A stretch of 64,000 bases of DNA from Lingula anatina. Taxonomy: Eukaryota > Animalia > Brachiopoda. Positions within the stretch are counted from its first letter, which is position 1. The number at the start of each line of letters is the position of its first letter. The DNA is taken from the NCBI GenBank assembly GCA_051362555.1, contig CM120641.1:24558401-24622400 (forward strand), read 5' to 3'. This document shows positions 31,601-63,636 of the stretch, one piece after another. Made by a program: the position numbers and the translations under genes. The notes under the pieces are model-generated. The model was not told where the DNA came from, made no database searches, and saw nothing but the letters and a program-made list of their open reading frames with translations.

Positions 31601-34600
31601 ATGGTAATTATTAGGGTGATAATTCCTAATGGTATGGATATAAAACATTGTGAATAATGATAAGGATATGTCAAAACATTGTGAATAATGATAAGGATAT
31701 GTCAAAGTTAAGAAAGAATAAAATTCAAGCATATTGGTATCACCATGCAAGAAGACAATAAAGATTTCTCCTAGACAGATAAATTGCAATTATCTTTAGA
31801 AAAAATCCCAACAGGGAACTAGTTATCTGCCTGAACTTGAATCTTAGCTATGTGACACACCCACAAACATGCATATGTGCATAAACCCACATGCACGCAT
31901 GCATTTATGCACATAAGCATGCAAACATGCATGCACACACACCATATGTACCTGGTTCTACCTTTCCTTTGATGGTACCAATGACATTATAGGTCATCCT
32001 TCTAACATTATAGTTGTGCACTTCCAATTTGACATTTCTGAAAATAAGAAAAAAAATCAGTATATATTTGGCAAATATGAAACTTTTAAATTTCAGCTCT
32101 GTATAATCACTATTTTATACAAATTGTCACAAGTGAATCCAAATATCTATTAATAAGTGCCAGTTTTGGACACCAGTTCATAATTTCAATATAAAGGCTC
32201 TTAGACTACAACAAGTTTTGATTGTTTATAGGCCAGGACTTTTAACACTAGCCTGTTTAAAACTCAAATTTTTTATATATCTGTATGTTGCATGCAGTCA
32301 TTCATAAAATGCCCTTGGGCCAATATCAGAATATTCAGGATATATTCATAGTTGACTTCTCAAATTAACCATTCTAACTTGAGTCAAAAATGCTTCACGA
32401 CCACTAAAACTGCCAAACTACATGTAGGTACTATAGTTTATCTGCAAACATGATTAACTAGAATGCAAAGCATCAAATTTTAAATTTGTTCAGCTAACTT
32501 TTATTCTAAAATGTATTCAAATTAGAAAAGCACTCGGTGAGCGCAACCTCGACCAAGTCAAATAATGAACTAATAAATAACCATTTCTTAATTAATTAAT
32601 TGATGAATTAGTTAATTAATCATCACCAAAATCTAAACTTTTCTTCCTTGGTTAATTTGTGACCTATCCAGAAAATTTAATTAAAATCTATACATAATAA
32701 TTAATTAATTAATCGATAAATAACTTTAAACATAGGTTCATTTTATCATGCAGTTACTCAGTAGCAGTAAAAAACAAATCAGAGATAACCCTATTTCGGC
32801 AGGACACATGCATCTGCACTTGGTGGCTATATATGATTCTAGGACAATCCAACCCCCCCCCCCTCCAATCAATGCTCCCTGGACAATCCCCTCCCCCCAG
32901 ACAATTCCCCCAGGACAACCCCCACCCCCAACGAATACATACATTTATACACAAATAAAAAGTAAATAGTGTAAAGTTCAAAACATTTCATCCATTTCAT
33001 TAATATTGTTAGTGTGATAATACAAATTTATCATTAAACAATTTTTATAACAAATTCCTTTTTCATTGAGTGCAAGTACAGAAAGTATTATTAAATATCT
33101 ATTCAAAGTATAACCACCTATCCTCCAGGTAAAGGTGGGGTAAACAGATGAACAGGTAAATATATTTTATGAATATTTTAGTGTGGTGGGTAGTGGGTAT
33201 AGGTTGGTAGTATTCAAGCAATTAAAAGTGATAGATAGTCAAAGGGATTCCTGGATAAGGGAAAAAATCTGTTTACTCCACCCATCTTGATTAAAGGCTT
33301 ACTTAATCAAGGGGGGAGTAATGAAGCAATTAAAAGTAACAGCTAATTCATCAATGGGTTGCCTGGATGTGTGAGATCATCTGTTTACCACGTCTTTACC
33401 TGGAGATATACTCAGTACTTTGATCAGATTTTTAATAAAATTTTCTGTTCTTCAATTTCTAAAATTTTTTTGTACTTGTACTCCATGAAAATAATTTGTT
33501 TAATGAAATTAATATGCTCTATCCTCAAGTTGCATCATCAAACTAGGAAATATTCATAAAATGGATGAAAAGATTTGAACTTTATACTCTTTACTTTATA
33601 TTTGTGCATAAATATATATTCTTCGGGGGAGAATTGTCCAGGGGGAATTGTCCAGGGGGGGGGGATTGTCCTGATAACCCATTTATATGCACAGCTAAGA
33701 GCCTGCATAGATAGGATATTTGCCTTGTCAACCCTAGTATCAATGGTTACTGGAAACTGCAGAGGAATGCTGATAGTGGAGGTTAGTTTCCAGTAAATCT
33801 TGCCACTCAGGTAGGGGGAGGGTGTAAGAAGAGAAATTTCACCCAGAAATACATTTTAACTTCTTTTCATCAAATTCAAATCCATGGTAAAGCAAAAATC
33901 TTACAGATTCTGAAATTTTGATCCAGATTTGAAGCCAGGTCCCAAACTGTAGGCAACATTATGCAAAGTTCCTCTCCAATCCTCTGGAGAAACAGAGTCT
34001 GCAAGTTCCCTAAAAATAAAATGTTCTCAAAATCAACATTGTATATTAATCTTTTGTATATGTAAATTTACAACACAGAGATATGCTACTATTGCTGATG
34101 AAAGTATTGCTAACATTCGCACAATCTTAATTGTCTATTCATGTGAAAAAGTACTCTACCCATTGCTGGGGAGCTTATAATAAGAAGACTTATTCAAACA
34201 GCTTCAACCATTGTTTATTTCCATCACAATGGAGGAAGCCATTTGAATATATTTTCTTGTCTTACACACACGCACGCATGCACACATGTACGCACACATA
34301 CACACACACACATGTTGAATGTTGATGCCCTCCCCTAAAAAAAATTCACATTAAAAAGGGTATTTCTTTTACAATTCTTCATAGAAAAAAAAAGCAAAAT
34401 TATTTCCAGACCTCAGAAGAACTTTTGCATCATCATAACCAATGGGTTGACATGGGATCTGTGGCAACTGTGCCTTAAGGACTTTGTCCTGAGACCTGTA
34501 AGCCCATTCTGAAATTGTAACATATACTATGAGTCATCACAAAAATCAAGTTTCATTGGTGACATAAATGACTGAGTAAAAACCAGGGCCTTCATATTTG

Positions 34601-34839
34601 TATTTTGGGTCCAAAATAAAATGTGTGCATATTACTTAATTATCAATCATTAATAAGTTGTTATCAAAATATCAGTGTAAAGTGTTCATATTCATGGGGG
34701 CAGCACCATGTGTGCTCATACAGCTCCTAAAAGTCAGCCTGTGTTCTAGGCTTTGTAGGTTGGTAATCTCAGAAATTCAGAGTGGCACCTGCAGAACCAC
34801 TTGTCAATGACTGTGTACAAGCACCTGTGTCCAATTACC

Positions 34840-34870
<31 letters not shown>

Positions 34871-37800
34871 ACATCTGACCTGTAGCTGGGTAGCCCTGTG
34901 TCAGCTGGTCACCTTTTGTCATGACTACATTGCCTCTCTGTGCCCCTGTCCCTGGTAACCACCATGAGTCTGGATACACCTTATCCACTCCACTGATGGC
35001 ATAGTCTGCTGGGTCAGAATACAGTATCAGCCCCTTGGCTCCAAATTTGTGTGCTGCTTTTAGCTACAACATTGAAGGGAATGGTAAGGGGATTATCTCT
35101 ATAAGAATTGCCAAAACTGTAGCAGATTTATCAAAATATCTATATTCTAGCTACAATGTAGGACTTCTTGTTACATAATGTTGTAAATTTATTTGATTTA
35201 CTTAGTATTTCTGAAACATGCCAGCAAAAACTGTGTACATACAAACAATTAACCTATCACAATTTGAATACACCAGTAATAAGAAAATCTTATCTTTTTT
35301 CAAACTTGACATTCAATTTTGGTCCATAAGTAAAAAAAGGTAGGATTAAAAATGCAATGGCAATAATTTTTTCCCAGCAAAAACATAAGGTGTAAGGAAT
35401 ACTCACCTTGTCCCCTCGAAAAATTTTGCCATATCTTGCTATTGCAATTTTGTCTGTAACATTTATTCCTAGGTCTTGTGTCAACTGCTCAAAGTCTTGC
35501 TCTCTGCCATAGTTCACATACACTAAATCACCCTGATTGACAATTAATAGGGATCATTTAAATGTCATGAATGGATTCTCTACATATGTATGTGTTTTAA
35601 GTTTCAAGATTCAAATAATGAAGACTGTTACATACATACATATATGTGAGATTGTGTGTTACTACTGAAGAATTAATGAGACATTTACAATTCCTGTTCG
35701 GATTTTACTCTTAAAAAACAGATGATATATAATACCACAAGTATTAAAAAAAAAAACAATACAACAAAGTTTTAGGAGGCACCATATTGTTTTATGTCTC
35801 CTTGATCTAAGCTGATGTAAGAAATAGGATCCATCCTTTAAAAGAATGGAACAAACTCAAGTGTGATAACGTTGGATGCAGCATTGAATCCGAGGCTAAA
35901 GCAAAATGTTGAGAAATTGTGTAGCATCGAATCCGAGGCTACAAGCAAATTTGTGAAGTATTAGACCGTCGCCATAAAAAAACCTTTGACTACGCCAAAC
36001 TTCCCTTTTCTTTTATCATATTTGACAATGACTACATCTTTTGTTAAGTTAAAACTAATAGATTTTCAAAGACAACACTTTACATTAAATATCAAACCCA
36101 ATGGTCAGTGGTCAAGGTAAATAATCCATGCTAAAATACAAAACTCAGCAATTTAAGAAGAGAGAGTAATTAAACTCTGCATGTTTACTTACTTGGTTTT
36201 GCACAAAAGATGGCCTTCACGACAAAGCATGTTCCTCTATGTTGGGGAACACAATGTTATTTTACAACAACTTAAGTTGTGCACAACTAAGACAATTAAC
36301 ATGTGCAACAAAGACAATCAACATGTACAATTAACACAATCAACATTGACAACTAACACAATTAGCGTGGATGACTTACATAATTAGCATGTACAACTAA
36401 TACAATCAACATGGACAAATTACACAATCAGCACGGGCAACTAACACAATCAGCATGTACAGTTAAGGTCAGCACTAGATCATATACGGCAGCGGGACGG
36501 AAGTGAGTAATCCAACATGGCGGTCCCTAGCGACGAGATGCTAAGGCTGATAGTCGAATGTTTGTAGTGCCGATCAAAACACAGTTCAATTGTTTTTTTT
36601 TTAATCGTTTAATAACTAGGAATATAGCATATAATTTTTATTTACTTTTTAATCTATCTTTTTATTTTTTAATCGTATTATACCTAGGATTTTGTAAACT
36701 TTGCGATTTGAATAAAGTAGATGAGTTCCACCTCCTGCTAGAGTGCAAAGCATATGATTCAATACATGATTCCTTCAGAGGGCAGCTGTCAGAGTTCCTA
36801 CCCCTAGCGACTTCAGCTTTAATGAACTGTATAATTTTCTTATGGGTGCTCAAGACTTAAATATTCTTAGAATGGTTATGCCTTTTCTTAATAGATGCTT
36901 CCAACAAAGGGAACAAACCCTCTCTTATACATTGTACTCTTTTCAGTGTTTGTATTTAAATTCACTTTATAAACTCATTTATTAGTATTATTATACATTT
37001 ATCTAATTGGGTCTAAATGCGTTTCCACGTCCTGCAAATTTACGTATCTATAGCTGGAGTTGTCTGTTTTACCTCTATAATTGTACTTCGGCCCATTTTT
37101 AAACACATATTCATCTATATCGCATCAAAATCATGTATATTTATTCATTTACTTGTTTGTACTCTGCTATAGTTAGATGTACTAGCTGTCTTTGATTGAA
37201 CCTTATTTGTGAAGGTGTATCAATAAAGAATCCCCAGGGATATAGCATACATGTATATTTTCCTAGATATTTTGCTGTAAAACTACATCCTATAAATGTC
37301 TCGGCGGCGCCACTCGGAACTACTCGGATGTCTCCGCACTCGACAATAAGTATGGTTAGTATGGAGCTTGCGGAATGAGCCGAGGATTGCAGATTGTGGC
37401 AGCGCTGGGGGCCGCCATGTTGGATTACCCACTTCCGTCCCGCTGCCGTATATGATCTAGTGCTGACCGTACAGTTAATACAATCAACATGGTGAAATAA
37501 CACAATCAGTAGGGGCAACTAACACAATCAGCATAAATAACCACCACAATCAGCATGGACAACTTGCAGCAGTAAAAGCAACATGTACACCCCACCTCCA
37601 CTGTCCCAGCAGGAGCAAAAGCATTGAAAGGTGGCAGCACTCCTGTCTGGTTCTGGTCTGGGTTCAGTATCTTCTCTGTGGCAGCACTGGCAAACTCTAC
37701 CTTGCCAGAGGTAGAGTTCACTACAGACACCTGAGAAAAATAGTAATCAATCATCACCATAAGGTTTAGATGGACATTTTCAATAAAATGATAACACAGT

Positions 37801-39029
37801 TACTGTGTAACCTCAATAACATAAGACGGCATTGCACTGTTGCAATGCATTACATGGTATTACATACATTAATCTATAAGTACAGTATAAAATCGTAATG
37901 TATCACAAGAAGAACACTGATTATTAAAATCATTTTCAACCTTCTCACCATGTTTGGCTTAGATATATTGGGATATGAAAGGAGAACATCATAACCCACA
38001 ATCTCAGCCTCCAGACCTTGCTCTAACCACAGTTTGCGTATATACTCTGCCTGCTCCCAGTCTGCCGCAGTCCCAGCAACATGAGGTTTGGTGGTCAGGT
38101 ATCTGGAAGGTACCACAAAATACAAAGATTGTTGACTAGACTACCCCCCCCCCCCCCCCCCCCCCCCCACTGTTGGCAAACCTCTAGTTGTTGTTTCCAG
38201 TGACACTTTGAGTTTCAGAAATTATATTGAAGACTTACCTTTACTAAATATATGCCATTTGATGATAAAGTGTAGGCTATGTACATCAGGATTAATTCTT
38301 ATCTTAAGTCACAAGAGCTTATTCAGACTATGCATACCAGAATGTGCTACACTTAACCACAGGCAAAAATAAATACTGTTCAACAAACAATTATTAGGTT
38401 TTAAGTTATTTTGCCAATAAATACACTTTTTTCTAAATAAGTCGTCATAAAAATCATGAAATTCAATTAATGACAACAGTGGCACATGATGCAATTCATA
38501 ATTAAAATGTTATGAATTAAATCTATTTTTGTTTTTTATTAAAATAGAAATATTTTTGTTAACGCTCAGGTCGATAGGCAGGGTACCCTGAGGTTTGGGG
38601 AGGGGGAGAACAGCTCTTTTGGATGGAAGAGTCTACTCAATATCAAAATTTGATCTAATATCTATGCCATTTCTCATGCAGTTGTGCCAACAATGGAGAT
38701 AAAAAAGTACTCTGCATTTGAAATTTTAACTACAGCTAAGCCTGATGCTTCTCATCAGTAACACTCCTCTCAATTAAATTACAAAGTTGCTAAAACTTCA
38801 AACCTGTACTCCGCATTTACCTAAGATTATCTCTGATGTTATTGGCATCTATTTCATTGATCAGTTTGCTGCTTATGCTGGGATCAGCCTCAGCAACCAA
38901 TTGGCGTGCTACCTGGGAAACTTGGTCTCCATTCTGACGAGCAAGAAAACCAATCACAAGCCCTATTGCGAGGCAAACAGCCCCAGTTACAATCACAATT
39001 AAAGACACAACCCGACCTTTCACAGCCAT
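25638..39029 (-). CDS. NAALAD2: Glutamate carboxypeptidase II / NAALADase-like type II membrane peptidase (M28B), 18 coding exons, 738 aa; symbol is family-level, orthology not established
   Basis: Exons: 39029-38821, 38102-37949, 37730-37596, 35532-35407, 35063-34880, 34508-34412, 34009-33905, 32037-31952, 31491-31372, 31117-31035, 30724-30661, 30015-29948, 29699-29614, 29310-29223, 28344-28086, 27702-27621, 27135-27043, 25815-25638. All introns are GT-AG, phases are consistent and the total is 2217 nt. Motifs: N-terminal TM helix, [87 protein letters not shown]. Confidence 0.95.
27176..27279. repeat. Compound (GACAT)n(GATAT)n microsatellite
   Basis: Read directly; the unit switches by one substitution midway. 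Confidence 0.95.
30470..30698. repeat. Four tandem copies (56-62 bp) of the exon 11 3' end plus splice donor
   Basis: GACACAAAC recurs at 30470, 30532, 30588 and 30646; the last unit runs into the true exon. Confidence 0.9.
32522..32830 (+). mobile_element. Possible Helentron-associated non-autonomous element (HINE) relic
   Basis: Starts TAGAAAAGCACTCGGTGAGCGCAACCTCGACCAAG, resembling recalled HINE 5' ends. The 3' end is not clearly defined. Confidence 0.4.
32841..33672. mobile_element. Foldback element with about 310-bp inverted arms
   Basis: GGACAATCCCC-type repeats mirror GGGGATTGTCC. Arms 32841-33150 and 33376-33672 match in order, e.g. TCCAGGTAAAG..GGTAAACAGATGA against TCATCTGTTTACC..CTTTACCTGGA. 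Confidence 0.8.
36280..37590. repeat. 22-bp minisatellite interrupted by the MULE (arrays at about 36280-36466 and 37469-37590)
   Basis: Unit approximately CAACTAACACAATCAGCATGTA on both sides of the insertion. Confidence 0.85.
36467..37468. mobile_element. Non-autonomous Mutator-like (MULE) element in intron 3 of the NAALADase gene
   Basis: TIRs of about 60 bp (GGTCAGCACTAGATCATATACGGCAGCGGGACGGAAGTGAGTAATCCAACATGGCGG and its near-perfect reverse complement). There is an exact 10-bp TSD, GTACAGTTAA, at 36457-36466 and 37469-37478. Confidence 0.85.
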
Positions 39030-39674: not shown

Positions 39675-39842
39675 CAGTGACCGATCCAGAGATAGTTTCT
39701 GACGGTCTTCCAAATTATCTTTGTTGATCCATCCTCCATTTCTGACCATCTTCTGATAGAAAAAATTAGATACCCGTCAATGTAAATCTGAAAATCTGAC
39801 CGTCTTCCAGAAGACCCAGAAGACGGCCTTAATCCGCCCCTG
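39675..39842 (-). mobile_element. MITE family A, copy 2 (168 bp, 5-bp TSD)
   Basis: Reverse-complement homolog of 8056-8219; TSD ACTTA on both sides. Confidence 0.85.
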
Positions 39843-39979
39843 ACTTAGGTCTGAAATTCATGAATGGGAAAAAATTCTCATTGATGGTTAAAGAAATATG
39901 ACACCATAATCTACCTTAATGCAATCCAAATTATGAAATATTTAAATATTATTGGTATTAATTGTATTTTAATTAATTG

Positions 39980-40124
39980 TCAGGGGGTTCGAAAGAACTA
40001 CCCTTTTTGCAGGGAAAAGGTCCACTCTGGGTAATTTGACCTAGGTACAAGAGGATTTTATGGTAAAAGGTCCACTTTTTCATATAAAGACCCCCCCCCC
40101 CTCTGAAATTGTTGGCTATGGGCC
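39980..40124 (+). mobile_element. MITE family B copy, 5'-truncated
   Basis: GGGGGTTCGAAAGAAC...AAAAGGTCCAC (twice)...GGCTATGGGCCT, matching 59843-60010. Confidence 0.75.
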
Positions 40125-41537
40125 TAATAAAGCACCATTGTGTCTGATATTTATATTCAAATGATACATCTATTTATTCACAACATTCTGATCCCACACA
40201 ATACTTTTCTCTTCATCAGTTTATTTACACATACCATAATCTTTATCAAGGATTGAAAACAATAAAGACATAATTTAATATTTTTACATACTAAGAAATA
40301 AATGATATAAATAGGTTTGCAGTGGATGAAAATGAAAAAAAATTGAATTCAATTAAGTTTATTAGTTAAGATATAATCAAAATATCAAAAACTATATACA
40401 CAGCAAATAATAACTGTAGACCTTGTTGGGCATATTCTTAATAGTCATTATTAAGTATAGTGCACATATGCTTGCCGCTGATAATAAACTTATACAATCA
40501 CTGAGAAAAGTCTTCAAACTAAAATCTAACTATACAAAATAATGATCCATTTTGGTAATGTATGGATGCACCAAGAGCCTGGGGTATGTAACTGTCTAAT
40601 GTGTTGGTGGTAACCAGTTTCAATACAGACAATATTAGTCCAAAGAATCACATCTTTATTTAATTATGTCTTATTATTTATATAAATTTTACATTTTAAT
40701 TTAGCTCTAAAACTAAAGAAAATGTTCAATGAAAAAAAAAAAAAACTAAAGAGATGTGCTTACTTAGACCATTACAATACTTGACTGCCTCTACATTAAA
40801 GAATCCCCAGTTGCACTTATTAGAAGTGGAAGTTACACCACTGAATTCAAACACCATAATTTAATATAATTAGCAAGAAACACAATCTATGAAACTTAAT
40901 GTATCACCCTATCTGACAGAGATGACTGGAAACCCAACAACATATATTACTAGAAATGGTACAGGTAGTTTCCAACCGTCTCTGACACCTGGGTTGTTAT
41001 ACATTGATCATCATTACGTGTCCTGAAAGAAATGACCAAAATCTTAGTTTGGCCGAGGTGCCATATGTGTATGTACAGCACCACTTCACCACAGACAGTG
41101 TAAATGGACACATTATCTGCCATGCAATCCCATTTTACTGGCTTAATTTATGATCTTTTTACTTTATTGTTCCAATTAAAATAGTAGACAGGAAGGAATG
41201 GTCTCCCAACATAGGGTTTCAAAAATCTGGGGTTTGATTGTTCATAATGGATACAGACATACAGCCAATACATTATGGCATTTGGCACTGTACGTCTTAT
41301 GACCAGATTTATGAGGGCAAATTGCCTGGAAGCAGACATTTGATTTCACAAGTGGGGCAGCTTTTTGATGTGATAAAGAAGATGAGTGAAGATTTTTAAG
41401 GAAGAATAAATATAAACACGAGTGATTTTTTGTAAGTGAATTCTGTAAATTAAGCCAGATACCCATCTATTTCTTTGCTTGTACACAAGCCGATAGACCT
41501 TTATCAACTTTTGAACACCAGTGTCATGACTTCCCTG

Positions 41538-44500
41538 CTATTTGTGTGGTCTATGCGTAGTGTGTTTGTGGCTCAACTCTACTGCTGTCCTTTCCACTGC
41601 CAGCAGCTCACCTAATACATTTTCCACACTCAGCAAGTTACCTCTCAGTTCATACAGATACTTCCTTATCGTTCTCCATTGCCTGGCAACGGGTTTGGGT
41701 GATGTTTTTTCCTTATTCCAATTGCACATTATAGCATCCAGTCCTGGCAAACTAGTGCTTTCAGACATCACTGCATTCCAATCACAGGTAGTGTTGTTCT
41801 GGCTATTGGAAATAATTAGGGATCATGTACCAGTAAAATGTAAAAAAAATTAATTAAAAAAATTTAATTCATTTGCCACATTGACTGTCTCTGGAAATAG
41901 CATGGACCAAGAAAATGAATTATATTCTTAATTATCTCTTTCTATCCGTTGGAAAATGTTAAGTATTCTTTTAGTTTAATAAACCAGGACCATTTTCCAT
42001 TGTATACTACATTAACTTATACACTGATCGAGTAAAGAGGGAGTTTACAGGCTAGGATGTGCACAGCTTTTATCAAGAATTTACAAAGTGTAATATTTTA
42101 ACTTATTCATTCACAACACATGCAGGTATTAAAATCTATCAGTTTATCCATCCATCTTTTACAGAGTACCTGCAACCGTTTGTATGTGTAAGGTTTCCAG
42201 GGTCAACATTCAGAGAGAGCAGGAATAATAAGCGTCCATTCACTTCTCTGCTAACAACAGGACTGAAATCAAAATTAGAAATTATTATCATTATTGTTTT
42301 TGTTTTGTTTTATTTTTTTTTATTTTTTGAAAATATAAAAATATTGACATTTTCACACCCCTCCATGTGAAGAAATTTCACTTCTTACATCGATTGCAAT
42401 GCAACTTTATGTTGCATTACAAATGTACTCATACCAAGTAAATGCAATATAAAATTGGATACTGCCAACTACTGTATCTTAATTTGCCTGCATGCAACCT
42501 CAAAGAAAAAAAAAATTGTGAAAAAGAATGTTACATTCCTTATTGTAATTGATAACTAGAGACATTTCTGACTATCTTACTTTCGTTTGTCCAACTTCTC
42601 GTATACACTGGCAAATCTTGCTGACATGTTATGTATCTCGAAAGTTATCTGCTCAACTTCATCTAGATAAAATTAAAGAATATCATGAGCCACTGCACTG
42701 AACTGTGTCTGATGTTAAGGGGGTGAATTCCTGCTAACGACAAAAAAAAGTTATCTCAGTCTCTGTGTTGCCATAGAAACAATGGTTAATTACATAGTTT
42801 ATCGTTTCTGATTTCGGTTCCTTACCTAGTAATTCAGTAGATTGCATGTCCTTTTTGTATCTGTTAACAGCCACACTCACAGCATTCAGTATATCAACAG
42901 TCCATTCGGACACATTATATGGTAGATACATGGAGTCAGCAAACTTCCAGCTGTAGTTGGCATAAATTGTGGCAATTTCTTGGAACATCTGATTATTACG
43001 AGTTTGAAATTTTTCTTCACCAGATCTTACTGGAGGAGAGTGCCAACCTTGGCACTGGTCCTGTAATAGAAAAAAAATTAGTAAATGAAGTTTCAGGAGG
43101 TGGGGGATTATTGGTGAAAAAAAACAGCTGTACTCCAACAGAGGGAAATTTCTATATGTAGCTTTTTTTTGTACCTATTTCAACTTGTTTACAACAAGTT
43201 AACTTCAATTTTAGTTTAACACAGTACCCTTTACACTGCCATCCTCTGTTTTAGAGATAACTGGTAATTCACCTTTATCATCCGCTTAAATAATATATAC
43301 TAGGATCCTTATGTTGGATCAATTCTAGGATAATATTATGTATCATTCTAAAAAAATATTTTGTCTAATTTAAAATGAAATCCCAGCATTTAATGAAAAC
43401 ACCGTAATGTAAACTTTACCAGTCATGCTATCATACCTCATCCCCGTACCACAGTTGGGCTACACGCCTGATGTCAATGTGTTGACTCCTGCTGGCCTGG
43501 TGCCTGCATGGGGAAATGGTGACTGGTGGATGTCCCATGTCCTGGCTTGCTTCGAGCAGTGTGCTCCTATACATGGGATAAGCTGAGGCATACAACTGTT
43601 CCTTTGTGTTGTTGTAACCTATAAAAAAAGTCAGAAAAAAAGGAACTACTGGGTAATTATACCCACTGATGAATGCTGTCTATAGAAAATCATTATATGA
43701 CTATAATCATATCATATCTCCTTTTTTCAAAAATTGTGATGAATTTTTTAAAGGACTTGATAAAGGGTTTTATAACCTTATTGCCATTGATACACACTGA
43801 AACAAAAACACACTAAAATGTAGTATCTGTAAATTTCTCAATTATCCCCCATTAAACAGATTTAGTATTCTGAAAACAAAACTTGGACATCTTTATAAAG
43901 ACTGTGTTGTTTGATGTTAATATTTTTTAGGAATCTGCATTTTTGTATTACTTTGTTAAAAAATGTAACCATTTAAATAAATTAACAAAAAAAATTAATT
44001 AATGTACATACATAAACACAAAATGGGACTGACTGACCAATGGAATGAATGGATGAATAGATATATGAATTAATGAAATAGTTTACCTTGCTGTGGAAAG
44101 TTGCAGTTCACCACAGCTACAATGTTCTCCTGCTGTAAGCCCAGTCTTCCCTAAATAAAAATCGACAATTTCAAGTAAACACAGATGCTACATAACTGAG
44201 TATGCCTTAGTATTCAACATTATGTAAATTTTGTTGTCAAAAAGTTATGAATTGTAATAATGAGAGAGAGATTAATAATATTTTTCAATTTTCCTTTTCT
44301 CTTTCTATTCATGAAAATTAAAGCAGATTATTCATTTTCCTTATGAGGCCTTGTTTTCATATTATTTTTCTTTTTTATTTACTATTAGCCCTAAAGTCCA
44401 ATTTTGCCTAGATCATGTCCTCCCTACAGAACAACACGTTTTTGATGTGTTTTAAGAAAGACCCGCTTTCAATGAGAAACTGATGTAGGCACAGAAAGAT

Positions 44501-47500
44501 ACATCTACAAGACTCACCAAGACAGATTCCATTTCTTCTCCAGTGCCATTGTTAAACAAGCAGAACAACAGTGTTCTCCTTGGGCGCCAACCTGTCATAT
44601 TTTATATGATAACATTTTGGAAATATTACCTTGTTTATGTATCAGATAATTGAAATTTAGACTAGGGTGCTTAAAAGAATTTTTAGGAAACTGTACCCTG
44701 GTTTTGTTTTGGAGGAGTGGGAGTCCAACTACTTTGCCCATTATACATAAATGTAACTATTCAATCCATATTTTCTGATCAGTTGATTGGTAGCACTGAC
44801 GTAGTTTTTGTAGATTTAGTACCATTACACATTATTACTTCATGTTACTTTATTATTGTATAGTGAACAATATCTATGTCATCTGATACCTCTGGTTACA
44901 CTAGTAAACTAATATCACTACTGGTACATGCATTTAATTGAACTCTGACACTGTTAACATGCTTCCCAATGTGGCACATGTAATTAATTCAAGCAGGACT
45001 GATTTGTCTTTATTCCAATTCATTAACAAGGAAGGGGGGGGGGGGGGGGGGAAGAGAGAAAAAATCCACTTTACCTGACTGCATCACTTTTCCATAGATT
45101 CTGGCAAGCTCAGTCAGCATGGTAGATCCATAGGGTAGGCTGACATTTACCACATGCTGGTGGGCATATAGCAGAACATATTGATCTGAATGGGAAACTT
45201 AGCTCTGATATTTTGGTTTCTGTCACTGTAGGTATCTGGCATGGATTAATTTCATGAAATTTGACACAATCGATGCATCTGCATGAGACTGCTCAGTTTA
45301 AAACTATCAAGAGGTGATTTGATTTTTCACTTTTGTCTTAAATTAAACTGTTTCAGTCTTTCAAAATTATTGCTTTATAAGAGCATAAACTTATCTGAAG
45401 AAACTCTTTCTAAGAATTTTTATATTAAAGTGGGACTAGTAGCTTTGAAACGTTCAAATTTTTTACTACTCCAACCAAAAACCAATGAGTCAATTGCATC
45501 AGATAGGTGTTTAATATTGCAGACTTATGCTTCTTGCATTACCTGGCTCTATGCTTCCACGCATTTTCCCAACAACAGCATACAGCTTGCTGTCTTCCTT
45601 CCTCTTATCTCTGACATTCAGATGAACATGGCTGAAATTACACAAAAATACCATTAAAATGATTGAAATCTCTTCAAAACTATCTTACAAATGAATGTGA
45701 GAAAAAGATGATTCTCTTCTTGAATTGATTTACTTCAATCTTTCGAAAAAATACATACTAATACTATTCTATTCAATGTTCTTGCCTTTTTGCCACTGCT
45801 ACTAACATTCTTTACAATCTGAAATATTCTGAATATGAGCCGCCAACTGTGGAGAAGAGGAAAAGACTATTATTTTATCCTTGAATTAAAACCCTTTTTT
45901 TCATTCTTTCTTAGTCCATGTATTAATAGTTGCTAATATGGAAGGAGAGGAAGAAATTAAACTGAACTGAGTGATGACGATATGTCTCATGACCACATGT
46001 ATGCGACTGTACAAGCAAGGGAGACTCCTGAAGTATATTGCACTATAAATGATATTACAGTCTTCACCAATGATTTTGTTTATATATCAGTATACCAGTT
46101 CTTACACTCTTCTATCACTACCTACCTCCCGGCCCAAGTACCTCTAAATCCTGGACCAACATGTGACACAGCATCTTTCAGCCACATATGAGGAACAGGG
46201 TAGCCTCCCATATGTCTGTTAAAAAATACAAGGACTTGAAAATTAATCAAATATGATTTAAAATATGCATCTGGAAAAATTAAATTTAGAATAATAATGA
46301 ATTAAATTGTTAGTGTTCTTTTGCAAATTAAAAAAAATCACAAATTCCACCTTTTTGTGTTATTAACTTTTTACAATAATTTTTTTTGTTGTTTATATTC
46401 CATAAATACTTCCTAGGGATTAACAACATCTTTCCTTTTGAAATTGTGCTAGTTGGATACTTAAAAGTTCAAATCAAAATGGTAAAGACGTCTAGAAAAC
46501 TGAATAAAACTCGTGGTAGTATAGTTAGCTCAAAAGGTGAAATCACAGCATCAACCTATAAATGGAAAAGGTTAATGAATACTTACCCAGTGAAGACATC
46601 TGCCTGTTGGTGGGAGAGGGTTAATACTGGGATCTCCAAGGTGTGGCCTAAATGGTCAATACCTAAACAGAAACAGATTGAGAGTTCATCATATTTTGCT
46701 TCAGCACCAAGTAGATGTACAATTTTTCCACTGGCCTAATAGTCTACTGAAACAATAAAAGTAAGATATACAGCAATATTTATAATTGCAAATCAATAAA
46801 CACTGTAAAAATTTCTATACCAGTATTACATGTAAAAAATTCTTATTAGCCTGTAAGATGAAGCCACAGGAATTAACATTAAATAAATAAGAAAATTAAA
46901 AATTAACCTGTGGCAGGTGTATCTTCAGGCGGTAAAGCTTCGTTTGAGTTGGTGAGCGCTGAAGAATTGATGTGGGTTTTTGGGTAGAGGATCAGTCCAC
47001 GGATGTGTACTGCAACTGCCTGATGTACCTGTCAAAGAAACAGAATTATCTGATTCCAAGAACATTAATTAAAAAATATTTGTGTAAATATCCAGTTGCT
47101 ATGAAAGTTTCTTCAAAAACCACAATTTAGTTCAGAGATAAACTTGTGCTGGAACACATGTATGAAGAAATTGACCAGACAGACACTGAAATATCAGAAT
47201 GCACATAACTGTGATCTTACATAATAATGTTGTTTCAATAAAACTGTCATGGTGCATATATATATATATAACTGCATGAGTGTCACACAGCTGATTTCTT
47301 AATGCAAGGACATGCAAATATTATAATTAAACATTTATTTCAAAAGATATAAATACTAATTCACCTATTCTGATTATAAATTATCTATGTAAATCCCATA
47401 TAAATACAAATGCAATATATGTTGACAGGGTTTTAATATATGACATCAGACCAGGGAATTATATCCGATATAATTCCCTGATTAGACTGACTTCCATGCT

Positions 47501-49454
47501 ATAAGCTGACCAGTAGCTTTACACAGTGGTCATAATTGTCTGGCCAATTAATGTGCATGCTTCTTTTATGAATACTAAGTGCTTGGACAGGATTCATCAA
47601 AATACCAGTGCCCCAAGCTTTGTGACAACTAAAAAAATGTACTCCTATGACTGATAATTTGTGCAGTAGCTATACATGTAGGTGCCTGTTCTTGTCATCA
47701 ACGGAGTTGCCAACTCTGTTCATTGATGCATTTCCTACTCTATGTATATTTTTGTTATCAGTGTGCCATATCAGCCTCAGGTCCTAGGGAACTAACTAGT
47801 ATCACTGGACTAGCCAGAAAATAGTTTATTTATAACAAATGAAATCAGACTACCGTAGTAAAAAATTTAGCTTTGTGTTTGTTTTTGGTCTACATGTAGA
47901 GGGTTTCAATTTGGAGTAGTAGGTTTCAGACACCTATGAATCTGAGTGACTGTTTTGAAAACCCAACGTAATTTGGTATAAATATGCACCTTGGACTGGT
48001 ATACAACAACAAAACTGAGACAGAAAGTTTGTCTTATCTTTAAGACACACTTTCTCTATCTTGATCCAAGATAAATCAGAAGTAATTCTTGAAATTAAAA
48101 ATCAAACCTATTTCAATGAAGAAAAGAAATGGCTACTGTTTAACTAATTAGTGGACTTCTATTAATTTCCTCTGGACCTACGTAAGTAGTGCAAAATATT
48201 CAAGACCAATTCAGATTTTATTCTGAGTCTTAAGATCTTTTGTTACACCAGCTTCTGGGTTTTCTCTCTAAACTGAATTGCTCACACCTTTTCCTCCACT
48301 GATAGCTTTCCTTCTTTCACTACGGCGATCTTGCCTTCCAGCCTCAGGTGTGTCAGGTTATCGAGGAGGTACTGGTAGTCATCACGCTGGCCAAAGTTAG
48401 CAAAGATCAGATCGCCCTAATCAGAATAGAAATGTACAGCATTACTTGAAAACCTGAAATATAAATCCCTCCTCTTTTTAAACAGACTACCATGATTTCT
48501 TAACAAAGTTGAAAGAGTCCCCCAGAAGTTCAGAGCAAAATAAAAAGTTTGCCATAAACACTGAAACTAAATAATTAATGGCAAACAGTATGCGTCAACA
48601 AGTATGCAAAAGTTTGCACGAATGTATATTCAAATTTGCAACAGACCTCTGTCGCAGAGTAAAATTCCTTCTTGCAAATTTACTATAGAGTTTGCAGCTA
48701 GCTAGGTAGATAACTGGAAATTATCTGTAACCTCAACTATCAACATGTTCTGATATAGAGAGGGCAGGCATGGGGCAGAGACATGATATTAATGAAGGTT
48801 GGGGTCAAAGTGGCCTCTGAAATTCTGGGTGAAAACAGCTGAGGCATTCTGAAAAATGGAGTTGTTACATGGGAAAAACAAAATCCACTTCCAGTTTGCC
48901 TTATATGAACCCTAAAGGGAAAAGTGGACTAAAGCCTTTGTTGTAAGTGATTTATATCTGTATTATTTAGATAATTGAAAAAAAAAGAATGTTGCAATCT
49001 TTTCACTACAACCAGAAAAAAGAGAGGTGATTTGTGAAAAGTACATGTATGATTCATACAATAACATTACTGGGTTTTGCATAGAGTTTTAATTGAATTA
49101 AATTAATTAAAATTCATCAGTTTTACCTAGTACTAATATTCAATAACATTCCATGACTTTATCAGAACTGATTGTACAGCATGGCTATATGCCATGGCTA
49201 CCATCCAGGGCATTCTATCAATTCCATTTTAATTTCCTGAATATTACCACAATGATTTTTTCACCTCAATTACAATTAACCCTGACTTCCTACAAGTGTT
49301 GCAGTCAGTGCTCTGGTAAATTAAAATCAAGCGAAACAGTCAGCTCAATTTAGAATTCTGGTATAAATGGTATAAATAAGTGATTGAACTTAGATAATTA
49401 TTTCCTTAATGGATTCTATTACGCTAGTAAATTTATGTAATGGCATTCATGTGT

Positions 49455-49511
<57 letters not shown>

Positions 49512-52500
49512 GGATCAGATATTTAAAAAATTGAGAGACAAGGAGAGAGAAAGGGATCAGATATTTCAAAAATTAAATGTCACCTCAACAAGACCAGCTG
49601 GCAGCTTTTTTGTGGCATCACTTTCAACTTTCAGGATGTTCTGATTTCGAAACAGTACAACACCATTAGAATACTGCACTGTTATCTGAAAGATGATATC
49701 AAATATTATGCTATCTCAGTAACATATAAGAATTACCTAGGGCTAATCTTTTCTGATTTATTCCTATTCAGTTTTTTTTTATTTCTGATCATTATTATAA
49801 TTGGTTTATATCATGTGCATTGATATTCATCCAACTGATGTCTGACACTTATCAAAACTATTATAAACACATTTTCATGTGACATTTTATTGTGAAAAAT
49901 TTTCAATTTGAATGTCATACTCTTATTTTATAATTTTAATTCTTTAAAGTTAAAACTTGATTACTGAAATTCAAATAAAACATAACTGCAATTTCAAAGT
50001 GGATGGTTACTATTTTACAAAGCAGGCAACTCTAGAATGTCAGGAAGTGGTGAGGGGATGGAGGTGGGCATGGGAGTAGGGATAGGAGTGGAGTAGGTGA
50101 CAGTCTACTCTTCAGAGAATCTGCACGTACATATTTCACATGCTTTAAATATACATACAACACTGGGGGCATAAAAATAGGAGGTCACGCACAGTGGCTC
50201 TTAATGGAACATTTTTTTACCCTGTGAGGTAAATATTTTCGCTAAAAATATGAAGGCAGGTGTTACTGTTATTTATTTCTGTTAAATTCAAATGAAAAGG
50301 GTGTGTTTGTCATTAAGGTAGTCCTCTCATATTAGCTTTTTGTGCGATCTGCGCAGGTTTCGCGCATGAGTAGTTTTTTGAGATAGCGGCTAATTATGAA
50401 AATAAAACATGCAATAAAATACGTAATTCATCTTTTTAAGAAATTTGTATGAAATCTTTGATGTTATTTTGGTCGAAGCGCTACGAATATGTCAACTATG
50501 CGTTGCGTATGAGTGAACGCTTGGTCTTTTACGACGTAAAGTACCCACTTGCGACTTTGTTTACAAATACCGCATGTAAGAAGTTACGCGAAGAAGGGAT
50601 TGAAAAGAGCGTTTTAGTAAGGCTTGTATAGCAGTGACATGATCTTATCTCACGGAAAACATTCACGAGGGCTTGTATTTTGACCACAAAGTGTATTGCG
50701 GAGATTTGTCATATGGTTACGATGTGTGCAACAAGACATTGCCTTCTTCCGATCACCCAGGGCCAAGTTACCGTGATTTGTATGCTGAAAACAATTCTCT
50801 TCTTTCACAATAAGTTAAAATAATTAGACTCATGGCGTTTTGTTGTTGATTTAAGTATGTTATTGAACAATATGACCTGCAAACAGTGCGATTTTCAGCT
50901 CTCCAGAAAAGATGCAACCGGTGTGCACCCGCCTGGCGTGTTGCGACGTCATTCTTGTAATGGTTTTGTTAAAGTGCAGATGGACAAAACCATAAAACAC
51001 ACAACAGAGGACCAAGGGTTTTTATGCAGATACATGTAAAACTTTTTTGATGCTAGGAAAATAAACAGTATATTTTAGAAGATAAAGTGTACTTTATTCC
51101 AACTTTATCCTAATTTAACCAATCATAAACAAGAGACTTTAGTTTGTAAATTTATTACTTCACAGAAATTATTCAGCCCATAATGCATTAAAAGATAGTC
51201 TTGAGTTACAAAATTTAGTTAATTTTTGCAATGATGAAAGTGAAGAAAATCCTTTTTTCTGATTTATTATTTTATCCCAGTCAATTGACTAAATCCTGTG
51301 TGAAACCTTTACCAAATTCTGTAGAAAACCTTGTTTGTAAAAAAATAATTTCTCCATGTGTAGGAAAAAAATTAAGCTGTCATGGTTAACATATCAGAAT
51401 TTGTAATTGCTTTTCAAAGTGAAGGTCTAGATGGTCTTTATTTTCTTCTCAGTGAAATCAATCCAAACACAAAAAAACACGAGTAACAAAATGCATAAAA
51501 GTAATAAAAAAATTGTATGATTTTTTTAATTTTAAAATTAATATGCATATTTATATGCTGTTGATATGTATTTGATTGCATGTTGTAAACATAATATGAA
51601 ACAGAAATAAACTGATAATCAAATATGTCTGTAGATGAGTATTTTTGTCACCATCTTCCATATATAGAAAAGAAATATGACTAACTTACCATAGTAAGAA
51701 ATTGATACATTGTTAATATACAAAGGAAACAATTTATCCAGCTATCTTACCACAAAGTGCATATTTTAGTACTGAGTAAGAAAAATAAAGAAACAAAAGA
51801 AATAAAAATAAAAAGGAATAAGAAAATAAGTCACATGAGATTGATATAATATGCTTTTGGTCAATCTGCCTAGCCTATGAAAAATAATATGATTAAAATT
51901 AAAATAAAAAATGATATTGAAACATAATGAATTATCACAAAAAATTTAAGGCACACATTTTTTAAAAATGGTCCAGCCAGATTTTGACCCAGGAAGATCC
52001 CTGTTATTTGATTTTTTATTTCATCCCATTCAATTAACAAAATCCTGTGTTCAACCTTTAGCAAATTCTACATAATACCTAGTTTATAATAATAATTTCT
52101 TCATGTTTAGGGGGAAAATCAAGATGTCGTGGTTAATATATCAGCATTTGCACATGTCATTTCAAAGAGGTCTAGATGGTCTTTATTGTCTTCTATATGT
52201 AAAATTAATCTAAACACAAAAAAGAGTAACAGAATGTATAATGTAATAAGAAAAATGCATGTAGGATGTCTTTAATGCCTAAATTTTAAAAATGTATGTA
52301 TATTTATTATATATATTTATTTGATTTCATGTTGTAAATATAATATGATATCGAAATAAACTGATAACCAAAAGATGTCTTTAGACGAATATTCTTACTT
52401 TTTTGCCACCTAGTTTCCAAAGCACGTTTGTCAAGAAATATGGCTACATGTAACGTACCAGTAGTAAGAAATTGATACATTGTTTAAACAATGTATATTA

Positions 52501-55190
52501 AAATATACAAAGCAAACAATCTATCAAGCTATCTCAATGTTAAAAATGTATAAAACAGTAAGAAAAAAGGAATAGGAAGATAAAAGTCACAAGAGATTGA
52601 TACATGTGCTTGTAGGTCCAGCCTATGAAAAATCCAATATGGCAGCATTCCATGAGGCATACTGAAATCAAACTGATACTTTCAACATATTAATATCTAT
52701 TTATTATGAATGGGATAAGCAAACTTTATGAAATTTGGTTAGCTGATGCAGAGAAGTATAAATATAATTTTCATGGAAGCAAAATAAATGTATGAGTTAA
52801 AAAACCCACGATACAAAACACATTTATTTAAATTTGCTTGGAAATTTCCATTGATTCCTATGTAAATTTGATAAAAATCGATGTTCAAGCAGCCCTGGCT
52901 CAAAAACAAGCATGGTGTGGTACATATTTTTTTGTAAATTTCTTTGAGGTCTACCAAGATCTATAACATATCCACATAAAATTAAAATCGCTAGGGCAGA
53001 ATTTTTTATTTTTGCATTTTTCAGCAAAATTAAGGGCATTTTGGCAAAATCCCCATATAACGCAATGTAATAAACGTAGCGTTTTTCGGGACGCCACCTC
53101 TCGAAAACGAGCATGGTGACCCCCAATTTTTTTTTCATATTTTTTACTCATATGGTAAGAAGATTTTGTCTTACAATTTTAATCAAAATCGCTAGGGCAG
53201 AAATATGAAATCTGAAATATGAGAGAGCGTCCTTAAGTCTAAGTAGCCTGGGGTAAAGGATGAAAATTTAGGTCAGGTTCTTGGGGTTGTCAGCAGTTTT
53301 AACAGTTTTAAAAAACATGGGCCTTTTGTTTAATATTTTACTAAAAAAGGTAAACTCTGAAGACAATAGAAAGTGATACCAAAAATGTGTAGAATATCAA
53401 ATGTATAGAGCTGGTAACAGTTGTACATGATAATTATAAAGAGGGAGGAATTTATAAATGGGCATTTCCTCTCTGTTAGGCAAAGACATACCTCAGTAAA
53501 AATGTGTAATACCATAATTATAGGTTAGCATGTATCATATGAACCTGTGAGACACATCAAGATAAGAACATATTTTTCTAATACAAAACAAAATCTGACT
53601 ATTTAAAAAGTTGCATAGGCAAACAAACACTGAAAAGAAAATATCTTTAACTTGGGCATTGTTTTGGACAGGTTAAAGTAGGCAAGACACTTGTATTATC
53701 CAGAATTTTTCTTAGAAACTGATTATTCTACAAGGACTGGCTTCTGTCCTGAGGAGCATGCAGTCCCTATCCCAACCCCTCCCATCACCCCCTCTGACCT
53801 TTTTTTAAATATGGTACATTAGGGTTATTTTCCATAATATCCTAGCCACATAAAATATGCTCTCTGTGTTATGGCTGAAAAAAGAAATCTTTCAGATATA
53901 TCAGAACAGTTATACATTTCTCCAGTGTGACTTGATGAAAGAGCCAGGTAGAGTGTATACCTATCTAGGTGGATTCATCAATGACAAGATTTACTGTAAT
54001 GACGGAATCTTTTCATAGGGATTTTTACAGATGTTGAATTTTTTAGGTCATGAATTCTTAAAATTAGAACATTCCTATTGAGTAGTTGCAAAAAATAGCT
54101 ACCTTATAGCTCTATTCTATATGGTAAAAGTACCACAAATGCTATATAGAAATGTTATTTTAATTATTCCAAAATATTATTATGTATCTGAAAGATTGAT
54201 TATTTTTGCCCATTGAAAAGATCTAGTCATTACCGTAATGTTTGGATAAAGATTTTAAAAGTAGGGTAAGCTTTCTACACCAACTTCATTGAGCAGGATG
54301 TTTACTGTATTTAATAACTTTTATCAAGGATCTAGCATCCTTACTTCTGTCTCTTGGTATTCTTCCTCATCTAACTGGTTGTGGGTGAAGACCTCTGCCA
54401 TATCCAGCCCAAAATCCAACCACCATTTTTTCGCATCTTCTGCCAGTTCTTGGGGGCTTGTAGCATTTCCAAAGTGACTGAAAAAAATGTACTAATTGGC
54501 TGCCTGTTAGACATTTTACAAAATCTAATCACCAATTTCTTGCATCTTATGCCAGCAGTTTTGACCTGTTGCATTTATAAAATAACAATTACCCTTGTAA
54601 AAATTTAAGATGGTTTACTTCAATGTGGACATAGTAGCATACAGACACAGAGGTTAGTAGTACTCAAAATTTATGGAGATTATTTAATATGAATATATAT
54701 TTAATATAATATTAAGTTAATCTAACCAGCTAGGTATGCAAGAGGGGGGGAGGGTGTTTTTTGTGATTTTTACCTGAATTTACCACATGTATTCAGTGAA
54801 GTTAAATAAGGTGCGAAAAAATTATAAATATACATTATCTCATGCTTATAAAAGGAAAAAATTGAGTACTTTCTTATAGGTAACATCAACTCACCGTTGA
54901 AAATACTCTATGTGGCCAGGATCAATTGCTTTGAGGAGCCTGTCTCTAGCATCACTGTCTCTCTCCTTTATCAATGTTTTCAAGACATTAGCGAGAGCTC
55001 TGTCCTGTGCCGAGCAAATCTCAGTGTGGGACACATGAGCCACTAGTACGCCAATCAATGCCCCCATCAACAGAGCAAACACAAAGGCAATTATCACTTT
55101 TTTAATTGCCCCATTCCCAGGGGATGCACTAAGGAACATGTCATAACTGTGCCACTCATGGTTTAGTGCATAAGTCACATAACGTGCCAT
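41538..55190 (-). CDS. Divergent, probably catalytically inactive NAALADase/GCPII paralog (NAALADL2- or TfR-like pseudopeptidase), 16 coding exons, 713 aa
   Basis: Exons: 55190-54895, 54477-54345, 49685-49584, 48416-48288, 47028-46908, 46662-46587, 46215-46126, 45631-45543, 45185-45075, 44591-44518, 44150-44087, 43618-43437, 43060-42826, 42662-42581, 42262-42170, 41802-41538. All introns are GT-AG and the frame is open over 2142 nt. Motifs: TM helix, GDLIFANFG, GLILYP, HVGPGF, RGSIEPDQYVL, GWRPRRTLLFC, FADSMYLP, SLPGL. Exons of 64, 82 and 93 nt match the neighbour's lengths. The start codon choice is less certain. Confidence 0.88.
47452..47480. mobile_element. 29-bp perfect hairpin with a 7-bp flanking duplication (minimal TIR element or footprint)
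   Basis: ATCAGAC [CAGGGAATTATAT CCG ATATAATTCCCTG] ATTAGAC. Confidence 0.55.
49460..49508. repeat. (GA)n microsatellite
   Basis: Read directly. Confidence 0.95.
50317..53232. mobile_element. Non-autonomous Kolobok-like DNA transposon in intron 2 of the inactive paralog
   Basis: TTAA on both flanks, GG...CC termini, and an imperfect TIR (GGTAGTCCTCTCATATT / AATATGAGAGAGCGTCC). Subterminal regions are CpG-rich, with AAAATCGCTAGGGCAGAA repeated near 52985 and 53186. Confidence 0.75.
51250..52635. repeat. Diverged direct duplication (offset about 750 bp) inside the Kolobok-like element
   Basis: AAATCCTGTG, GGTCTAGATGGTCTTTATT, GAAATAAACTGATAA, TAGTAAGAAATTGATACATTGTT and AGCCTATGAAAAAT each recur about 740-770 bp apart. 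Confidence 0.85.
53994..54235 (+). mobile_element. TA-flanked MITE family D (Tc1/mariner/pogo-like), about 245 bp
   Basis: CTGTAATGAC...GTCATTACCG with TA on both flanks; shares GTAAAAG(C/T)ACCACAAATGCTA with the two other copies. Confidence 0.7.
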
Positions 55191-60010: not shown

Positions 60011-60141
60011 CTTTGTATATGTCTTCATTAAAAATAGTGTCTGGCACATTTTTATAGACACCCACAGCTCTTTTGCTTAAAAACTGTTGTCATCAAAACC
60101 ACAACACCAAGGTAATCATTGTTGGTATTGTTATATCCATC

Positions 60142-63636
<3,495 letters not shown>

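What the first reader, a model, noticed from the sequence alone, without database searches (positions are those of the whole stretch)
41538..55190. Intact but catalytically degraded NAALADase paralog with an endocytosis-type motif: candidate invertebrate transferrin-receptor-like pseudoenzyme
Seen: a 713-codon open frame over 16 GT-AG exons, directly upstream of and co-oriented with the canonical peptidase. The active-site segments are altered: [13 protein letters not shown] becomes YAHQHVVNVSLP (His kept, Asp387 equivalent lost), SWGAEEYG becomes LFNNGTGEEM (Glu424/425 displaced), and YLNCD becomes VVNCN (Asp453 lost). The cytoplasmic tail is about 30 aa and contains YDMF (YxxPhi), whereas the active neighbour has only MAVKGR. 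Known: vertebrate TfR1/TfR2 are M28B derivatives that lost zinc ligands, and TfR1 uses YTRF for clathrin uptake; NAALADL2 is also inactive. Inference: a tandem duplicate was repurposed as an endocytic receptor or as a regulatory dimer partner of the active enzyme, possibly convergently. Its ligand is unknown.
Basis: partly seen in the sequence, partly recalled or inferred. Interest (0 to 1): 0.8.

Follow-up and report, generated by a model that had tools for sequence, protein, structure and literature searches.

The report
Dead peptidase copy in a brachiopod
Next to a normal PSMA-type zinc peptidase gene, the lamp shell Lingula has an intact, spliced and transcribed relative that has lost most zinc-binding and catalytic residues, so it likely works as a non-cutting cell-surface binding protein, as vertebrate transferrin receptors do, though nothing here shows that it takes up iron.

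Summary
The gene has 16 GT-AG exons encoding 713 aa and matches Lingula anatina RefSeq XP_013407200.1 ('glutamate carboxypeptidase 2-like'). It lies 2.5 kb upstream of a canonical NAALAD2-like gene. RNA reads join 11 of 15 introns, and read polymorphism points to purifying selection (pN/pS about 0.24). His377 is kept; Asp387, Glu424/425, Asp453 and Arg210 are lost; His553 cannot be aligned with confidence. Pocket-lining loops are shortened. It is very likely a pseudo-peptidase. The transferrin-receptor reading is weak. YxxPhi arises in 52% of tail shuffles and in 2 of 29 canonical relatives. There is no RGD and no IRE. Sequence is closer to GCPII/III than to TfR1 (108 vs 52 bits). For it: a language-model search ranks a TfR2-like cluster first. 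Origin is unresolved: I obtained no NAALADL2 sequence, found no ortholog outside Lingula, and rejected no tree placement. NAALAD2 standing in for TfR is already proposed for sponges and a clam. The scan noted dead-plus-live M28/M14 pairs on other genomes, not this gene. Verdict: new member of a known kind.

The parts
54895..55190 (-). Gene A exon 1: start Met, 31-aa cytoplasmic tail, transmembrane helix (about aa 32-52), stalk Cys59
   Evidence: junction; same start in both RefSeq models
55134..55145 (-). YDMF (aa 16-19), YxxPhi-type motif
   Evidence: sequence; chance 52% in tail shuffles, 8.8% for YxxF
54345..54477 (-). Exon 2 (protease-like domain, N-terminal part)
49584..49685 (-). Exon 3 (apical domain)
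48288..48416 (-). Exon 4 (PA/apical domain; Arg210 equivalent lost)
   Evidence: Pfam PA at cut-off, 23.9 bits
46908..47028 (-). Exon 5 (21 aa shorter than the neighbour's; Asn257 region not conserved)
46587..46662 (-). Exon 6 (7 aa shorter)
46126..46215 (-). Exon 7
45543..45631 (-). Exon 8
45075..45185 (-). Exon 9: His354 (= His377, 45160-45162) kept; Asp387 lost; sequon at Asn359
44518..44591 (-). Exon 10: Glu424/Glu425 loop deleted; sequon at Asn397
44087..44150 (-). Exon 11: Asp453 replaced by Asn424 (44100-44102)
43437..43618 (-). Exon 12 = neighbour's exons 12-14 without their two introns, 20 aa shorter
   Evidence: junctions
42826..43060 (-). Exon 13: Tyr552/His553 region divergent (His496 is a possible equivalent); start of helical domain
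42581..42662 (-). Exon 14 (helical domain)
42170..42262 (-). Exon 15 (helical domain)
41538..41802 (-). Exon 16 coding part to stop; about 20-aa C-terminal extension with 4 His
40450..41537 (-). Likely 3' UTR (about 1.1 kb); no IRE found
   Evidence: stranded depth 5-7 in X4
25638..39029 (-). Gene B: canonical NAALAD2-like M28B peptidase, 18 exons, 738 aa, all zinc ligands kept (RefSeq XP_013407202.1)

Best explanation
Gene A is an intact, spliced, transcribed M28B gene that has lost four of the six zinc-ligand and catalytic residues (a fifth cannot be placed), so it likely encodes a non-catalytic type II membrane protein that binds a partner on its outer surfaces instead of cutting peptides. 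Shown: exon structure, transcription, residue losses, deletions in pocket-lining segments. Predicted: all three GCPII/TfR domains are kept. Inferred: it descends from an old duplication of a GCPII-type gene, probably in tandem with its neighbour; it then diverged fast and is now held by purifying selection. Also inferred: the old pocket is closed off (shortened loops, two sequons on former ligand loops), it is probably dimeric like its relatives, and it works as a surface receptor or scaffold. Uptake through YDMF is about even odds. The ligand is more likely not an iron carrier bound in the TfR1 manner.
For: Gene model and RefSeq match. 11 of 15 junctions in RNA. 11 synonymous vs 9 non-synonymous differences among the 20 coding rows shown, pN/pS 0.24, binomial p=0.002. 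All 15 canonical proteins aligned keep H377/D387/E424/E425/D453/H553, while gene A keeps only H377 for certain (ligand list from PMC10794815 passages). Conserved columns are kept at 25 of 48 in the protease core, but 4 of 25 and 2 of 16 in the pocket-lining regions. The model is confident in the scaffold and under pLDDT 50 at 239-268, 357-361, 427-440, 458-507 and 614-644. Fold matches GCPII Z 26.9 and TfR1 Z 25.6, rmsd about 14 A. All 15 introns match the neighbour's in phase, 12 in the same alignment column. Sequons at Asn359 and Asn397.
Against: No ligand, localisation or activity data. No ortholog outside Lingula, so nothing shows which surfaces are conserved. The model's domain packing does not match the solved structures (pTM 0.60, rmsd about 14 A), so pocket geometry is not established. 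The pN/pS uses only 20 of the rows shown, with 115 rows hidden. Tandem origin is only the best of 7 placements, none rejected (AU p 0.08-0.88). The protein has 31 His (4.3% vs 1.2-3.0% in 30 canonical proteins), which leaves room for a substitute metal site.
Confidence: 0.55

Rival explanations
1. It is the brachiopod ortholog of vertebrate NAALADL2, an old non-catalytic M28B branch, kept beside the canonical gene. This concerns origin and is compatible with a binding role, but it removes most of the novelty.
For: It is about equally distant (22-26% identity) from all canonical proteins, with a branch of about 3.6 changes per site, and a deep placement is not rejected (p-AU 0.30). From recall only (no call): NAALADL2 is also degenerate at these sites and shortened after the Asp453 strand.
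Against: It is adjacent to the canonical gene and shares 15 of 15 intron phases with it. The best blastp score (138 vs 135 bits) and best tree placement are with the neighbour, both by small margins. No NAALADL2-named cluster is among the 8 Atlas rows shown.
Confidence: 0.25
2. It is a convergent transferrin-receptor analogue: it binds transferrin, ferritin or another iron carrier and takes it up through YDMF.
For: Same architecture and catalytic loss as TfR. The Atlas top feature hit for the 395-aa N-terminal model is 'transferrin receptor protein 2-like' (0.95, 188 of 256 features), whereas the neighbour's top hits are NAALAD-type clusters. Exon 4's only 4 PDB hits are TfR1 apical constructs (E 0.43-0.89, not significant). 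The tail is longer than most canonical tails and has a YxxF. TfR orthologs are reported as vertebrate-only (PMC11094094 passage), so the role is open in invertebrates.
Against: YxxPhi is at chance level and occurs in 2 of 29 canonical proteins. A stalk Cys occurs in 9 of 29 canonical proteins. No RGD (RGD mediates transferrin binding, PMC7766611 passage). No IRE, though TfR2 lacks one too. phmmer: GCPIII 108 bits, TfR1 52 bits. Foldseek E 6e-28 vs 2e-22. Active PSMA is internalised too (PMC6308151 passage), so uptake alone would not make it TfR-like.
Confidence: 0.08
3. It is a regulatory subunit that heterodimerises with the neighbouring active peptidase and sets its activity, traffic or stability.
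For: Tandem position. The helical (dimerisation-type) domain is predicted intact. The family is homodimeric (PMC10794815). The neighbour has almost no tail.
Against: Neighbour exon 1 has depth 0-0.05 in all four runs, including X4 and X7 where gene A is read; only that exon was covered. The helical domain keeps only 11 of 41 conserved columns, and Pfam TFR_dimer does not hit.
Confidence: 0.08
4. It is still an enzyme or a metal-binding protein, using substitute ligands (His354, His356, His496, Glu401/402).
For: His377 is kept, a new His sits two residues later, WHS could stand for YHS, and the protein is His-rich.
Against: The bridging Asp, the general-base Glu and Asp453 are gone. Glu401/402 lie in a helix away from the catalytic loop. 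Substrate-binding Arg210, Tyr552 and Tyr700 are not kept.
Confidence: 0.05
5. It is a decaying transcribed pseudogene.
For: Very long branch and many deletions; low read depth.
Against: Open frame over 16 exons in two assemblies, only 8 differences in 714 aa versus 15 in 738 for the active neighbour, and pN/pS 0.24.
Confidence: 0.02

Closest known systems
Glutamate carboxypeptidase II/III (FOLH1, NAALAD2; MEROPS M28B; PDB 3fec, 9hlw) and Lingula XP_013407202.1
   Same: Type II membrane topology, protease-like + apical (PA) + helical domains, intron phases, His377; best sequence and fold matches.
   Different: Asp387, Glu424, Glu425, Asp453, Arg210 lost; pocket loops shortened by 3-21 aa per exon; two introns absent; only 22-26% identity; Pfam Peptidase_M28 and TFR_dimer no longer hit.
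Vertebrate transferrin receptors TfR1/TfR2 (PDB 3kas, 1de4)
   Same: M28B fold; YxxPhi in the tail; stalk cysteine; non-catalytic status of TfR (PMC10794815, PMC12045970 passages); Atlas features rank a TfR2-like cluster first.
   Different: No RGD, no IRE, shorter tail (31 vs 67-80 aa), lower sequence score than GCPII; no ligand shown; TfR orthologs are reported as vertebrate-only.
NAALADL2
   Same: GCPII-family member (PMC7429505 passage); its inactive status is recalled, not read here.
   Different: Not compared: no sequence could be fetched.
Sponge and razor-clam NAALAD2 proposed as TfR substitutes (PMC7034838, PMC12896564; abstract and passages read)
   Same: The idea of an invertebrate M28B acting in iron uptake is already in print as speculation.
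   Different: Those are described as NAALAD2 with possible enzymatic function, one with a predicted 3' IRE; the passages read do not describe a catalytically dead paralog.

Membership tests
M28B (GCPII/TfR) family | [quoted passage not shown] | tested here: met
   phmmer E 4.5e-30 to GCPIII; profile of 15 canonical proteins, 166 bits in three stretches; VIA Z 26.9, 519 aligned, rmsd 13.8
M28B (GCPII/TfR) family | Type II single-pass topology | tested here: met
   Hydropathy window starting after aa 31, mean 3.0; helix 26-58
Active M28B peptidase | Five zinc ligands H377, D387, E425, D453, H553 | tested here: not met
   H377 kept; D387, E425, D453 lost; H553 ambiguous
Active M28B peptidase | Catalytic Glu424 | tested here: not met
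   Loop deleted
Transferrin receptor (TfR1/TfR2) | Cytoplasmic YxxPhi motif | tested here: met
   YDMF aa 16-19, but found in 52% of shuffles; function untested
Transferrin receptor (TfR1/TfR2) | RGD transferrin-binding motif in the ectodomain | tested here: not met
   No RGD in P0129; role from PMC7766611 passage
Transferrin receptor (TfR1/TfR2) | IREs in the 3' UTR (TfR1 only) | tested here: not met
   Rfam scan of 39050-56000: 3 weak unrelated hits; 0 of 6 CAGWGN loops in 39100-41537 form an IRE stem
Transferrin receptor (TfR1/TfR2) | Stalk cysteines for inter-chain disulfides | tested here: inconclusive
   Cys59 present, but 9 of 29 canonical proteins also have one
Transferrin receptor (TfR1/TfR2) | Closer to TfR than to GCPII in sequence, structure or tree | tested here: inconclusive
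   Sequence favours GCPII/III (108 vs 52 bits); fold nearly tied (Z 26.9 vs 25.6); Atlas features favour TfR2-like; no TfR in my trees
Transferrin receptor (TfR1/TfR2) | Binds and internalises transferrin or ferritin | not testable with these tools
   Needs cell assays; no Lingula ligand sequence was fetched
NAALADL2 orthologs | Groups with NAALADL2 in a tree; shared derived residues and intron positions | not tested
   No NAALADL2 sequence among the proteins fetched or the PDB hits
Functional gene, not pseudogene | Open frame, splicing, purifying selection | tested here: met

The most novel reading that the evidence does not exclude
A brachiopod independently turned a duplicated M28B peptidase into an endocytic receptor for an iron-carrying protein (transferrin, ferritin or hemerythrin), repeating the vertebrate origin of transferrin receptors and supplying a candidate for the missing invertebrate uptake receptor.
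Probability: 0.08. Interest if true: 0.8.

Novelty: new member of a known kind. Interest (0 to 1): 0.42.

Why it matters
TfR orthologs are reported as vertebrate-only, and the invertebrate uptake route is open (PMC11094094 passage). Invertebrate M28B proteins modelled so far in trematodes and C. elegans keep their zinc sites (PMC9768917, PMC10794815). An expressed, selected, catalytically dead M28B in a lophotrochozoan shows that the peptidase-to-binder step, or an old NAALADL2-like branch, exists outside vertebrates. It gives a concrete protein to test and corrects a database label ('glutamate carboxypeptidase 2-like'). Without a ligand or orthologs it remains one more pseudoenzyme of a family known to produce them.

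Tried and rejected
Single exons against Pfam: no family at cut-off. Exon 13 against PDB: chance hits only. Exon 13 against 1.84 billion representatives: 6 hits with 5-9 stretches each; the 3 read are unrelated repeat proteins. Exon 13 word search: 0 of 6 candidates; the full RefSeq protein was hidden as a member of a cluster represented by a truncated model. Six-exon profile: 1 hit of 429 candidates, the gene's own model. In simulation that profile finds 4 of 5 copies at 60% identity, 2 of 5 at 50% and 0 of 5 at 40%, so distant orthologs are not excluded. No RNA holder was listed in the index; raw reads under the same species label were laid instead. The 25-protein tree (quick method, careful run unfinished) gave a saturated branch; placement test rejected none of 7; rare-state sharing does not single out the neighbour (14 of 157, others 0.05-0.14). 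No complex prediction was sent: an alignment of canonical homodimers would favour a pass by likeness. Literature: 10 searches listed no paper on this gene or on a dead invertebrate M28B; several of them were swamped by unrelated papers. Lambert and Mitchell 2007, Tykvart 2015 and the recalled yeast Tre1/Tre2 paper were not held and may bear on NAALADL2's range and on non-vertebrate precedents. No supplements were read. Rejected: frameshifted pseudogene; extra exon in intron 12 (reads skip all 376 nt); 13-nt micro-exon 6 (reads and RefSeq use the 76-nt form); stalk Cys as a TfR marker.
Full report
Gene model. The finding is a minus-strand gene of 16 exons, 55190-41538, giving 713 codons plus stop with all introns GT-AG. 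A second gene of 18 exons and 738 aa starts 2.5 kb downstream. It matches Lingula anatina XP_013407202.1 with 15 differences and keeps every zinc ligand when mapped on human GCPII. Gene A matches XP_013407200.1, labelled 'glutamate carboxypeptidase 2-like', with 7 substitutions and one extra Ser; a truncated 395-aa model on another scaffold is probably an allele. No whole genome was held.

Expression and selection. Raw RNA reads under the same species label join 11 of 15 introns at the predicted bases, and a loose end supports a twelfth. Gene A is read at low depth in X4, X5, X7 and X8 and hardly at all in X1 and X3. Exon 1 of gene B has depth 0-0.05 in all four runs; no other exon of B was covered. 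Of the 40 variant rows shown (115 hidden), 20 fall in coding exons of gene A: 11 synonymous and 9 non-synonymous, pN/pS 0.24, p=0.002 against neutrality. The gene is functional by these measures.

Active site. The GCPII ligands are His377, Asp387, Glu425, Asp453 and His553, with Glu424 as proton shuttle (PMC10794815, passages). All 15 canonical proteins aligned keep them. Gene A keeps His377 (His354), has Ser or a gap at Asp387, a six-residue gap over Glu424/425, and Asn at Asp453; Arg210, Tyr552 and Tyr700 are not kept. His553 aligns to Ser502 in the computed alignments, but His496 in WHS is a possible equivalent by eye, so I leave it open. Exons 5, 6, 9, 10, 12 and 13 are 21, 7, 3, 3, 20 and 8 aa shorter than their counterparts. 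Conserved columns are kept at 25 of 48 in the protease core but 4 of 25 and 2 of 16 in the two pocket-lining regions. Sequons sit at Asn359 and Asn397, on the former ligand loops. The AlphaFold model (39-row alignment, pLDDT 68.8, pTM 0.60) has all three domains, with low confidence in those same segments. It matches GCPII (Z 26.9) and TfR1 (Z 25.6) at about 14 A rmsd, so domain packing is not reliable.

Is it TfR-like? TfR1 has YTRF and stalk disulfides, TfR2 has YQRV and no IRE, and both use RGD (PMC12045970, PMC7766611, passages). Gene A has YDMF, but 52% of shuffles of its tail and 33% of random 31-mers contain YxxPhi (YxxF 8.8%). Two of 29 canonical proteins have one, and 9 of 29 have a stalk Cys. 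There is no RGD and no IRE. By sequence it scores 108 bits on GCPIII, 59 on NAALADL1 and 52 on TfR1. In favour: the ESM Atlas feature search with the 395-aa model ranks a 'TfR2-like' cluster first (0.95), ahead of NAALAD2-like (0.92), while gene B's top hits are NAALAD-type clusters. Exon 4 alone hits only TfR1 apical constructs, below significance. Both may reflect shared loss of catalytic features. PSMA itself is internalised (PMC6308151, passages).

Origin. All 15 introns match gene B's in phase, 12 in the same column; B's introns 12 and 13 are absent. Identity to canonical proteins is 22-26%. On a fixed 18-taxon backbone the best placement is with gene B, but none of 7 placements is rejected and the branch is about 3.6 changes per site; the free tree is saturated. 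No ortholog outside Lingula was found, by searches that lose sensitivity below about 55-60% identity. I could not obtain NAALADL2 or TfR sequences for a tree, so NAALADL2 orthology is untested; a resemblance I recall is only a lead.

Mechanism. Most likely (0.55) it is a non-catalytic surface binding protein or scaffold whose old pocket is closed and whose ligand binds the apical or helical surface. Loss of catalysis is strongly inferred from sequence; dimerisation, surface location, uptake and ligand are inferred only. Rivals: NAALADL2 ortholog (0.25, compatible in function), iron-carrier receptor (0.08), heterodimer partner of gene B (0.08), substitute-ligand enzyme (0.05), pseudogene (0.02).

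Prior knowledge. Non-enzymatic TfRs within M28B are known. TfR orthologs are called vertebrate-only (PMC11094094, passage). NAALAD2 has been proposed as a TfR substitute in sponges and razor clam (PMC7034838 passages; PMC12896564 abstract and passages). Trematode and nematode M28B proteins keep the zinc site (PMC9768917 first part and passages). Passages of PMC7429505, PMC8778642 and PMC11824224 added little. Ten searches listed no paper on this gene. The scan's own notes hold similar dead-plus-live peptidase pairs in other genomes and none on this sequence. Verdict: real, new member of a known kind, interest 0.42.

Noticed in passing
window 30495-30698: A 58-bp tandem repeat (3.6 copies, 80% matches) overlaps the end of gene B exon 11; its unit contains the codons around the Asp453 equivalent and the splice donor, so spare donors may exist.
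   Followed up: no
window 60100-63650 (minus): Upstream gene with exons that look PH-domain-like, then Pro/Gln-rich and Gly/Asp-rich tail; resemblance to PLEKHB/evectin is recalled, untested. Its 3' reads seem to trail down to about 56000.
   Followed up: no
window 23700-25130 (minus): Broken frames that look like a THAP domain and a DDE transposase; family assignment recalled, untested.
   Followed up: no
window 39683-40034: A repeat element between genes A and B draws most reads in all four runs, with loose ends on both sides; similar sequence seems to lie near 7800-8285 and 59850-60010 (by eye).
   Followed up: no
window 50300-53240: About 3 kb insert in gene A intron 2 with what look like inverted ends (by eye) and repeat-type read cover.
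   Followed up: no
window 55237 and 55281: Two out-of-frame upstream ATGs within 100 nt of the start codon; reads in X4 run on to about 55700 with no intron listed.
   Followed up: partly
window 41802-41806: RefSeq has one extra Ser at the exon 15/16 junction, which suggests an allele with an acceptor 3 nt earlier; this junction was not listed in the reads.
   Followed up: partly
gene B codons 305-314 (exon 7, 33905-34009): 4 of the 15 differences from the RefSeq protein cluster in 10 codons.
   Followed up: no
gene A whole protein: His content 4.3% (31 residues) versus 1.2-3.0% in 30 canonical proteins; could serve pH sensing or metal binding.
   Followed up: partly
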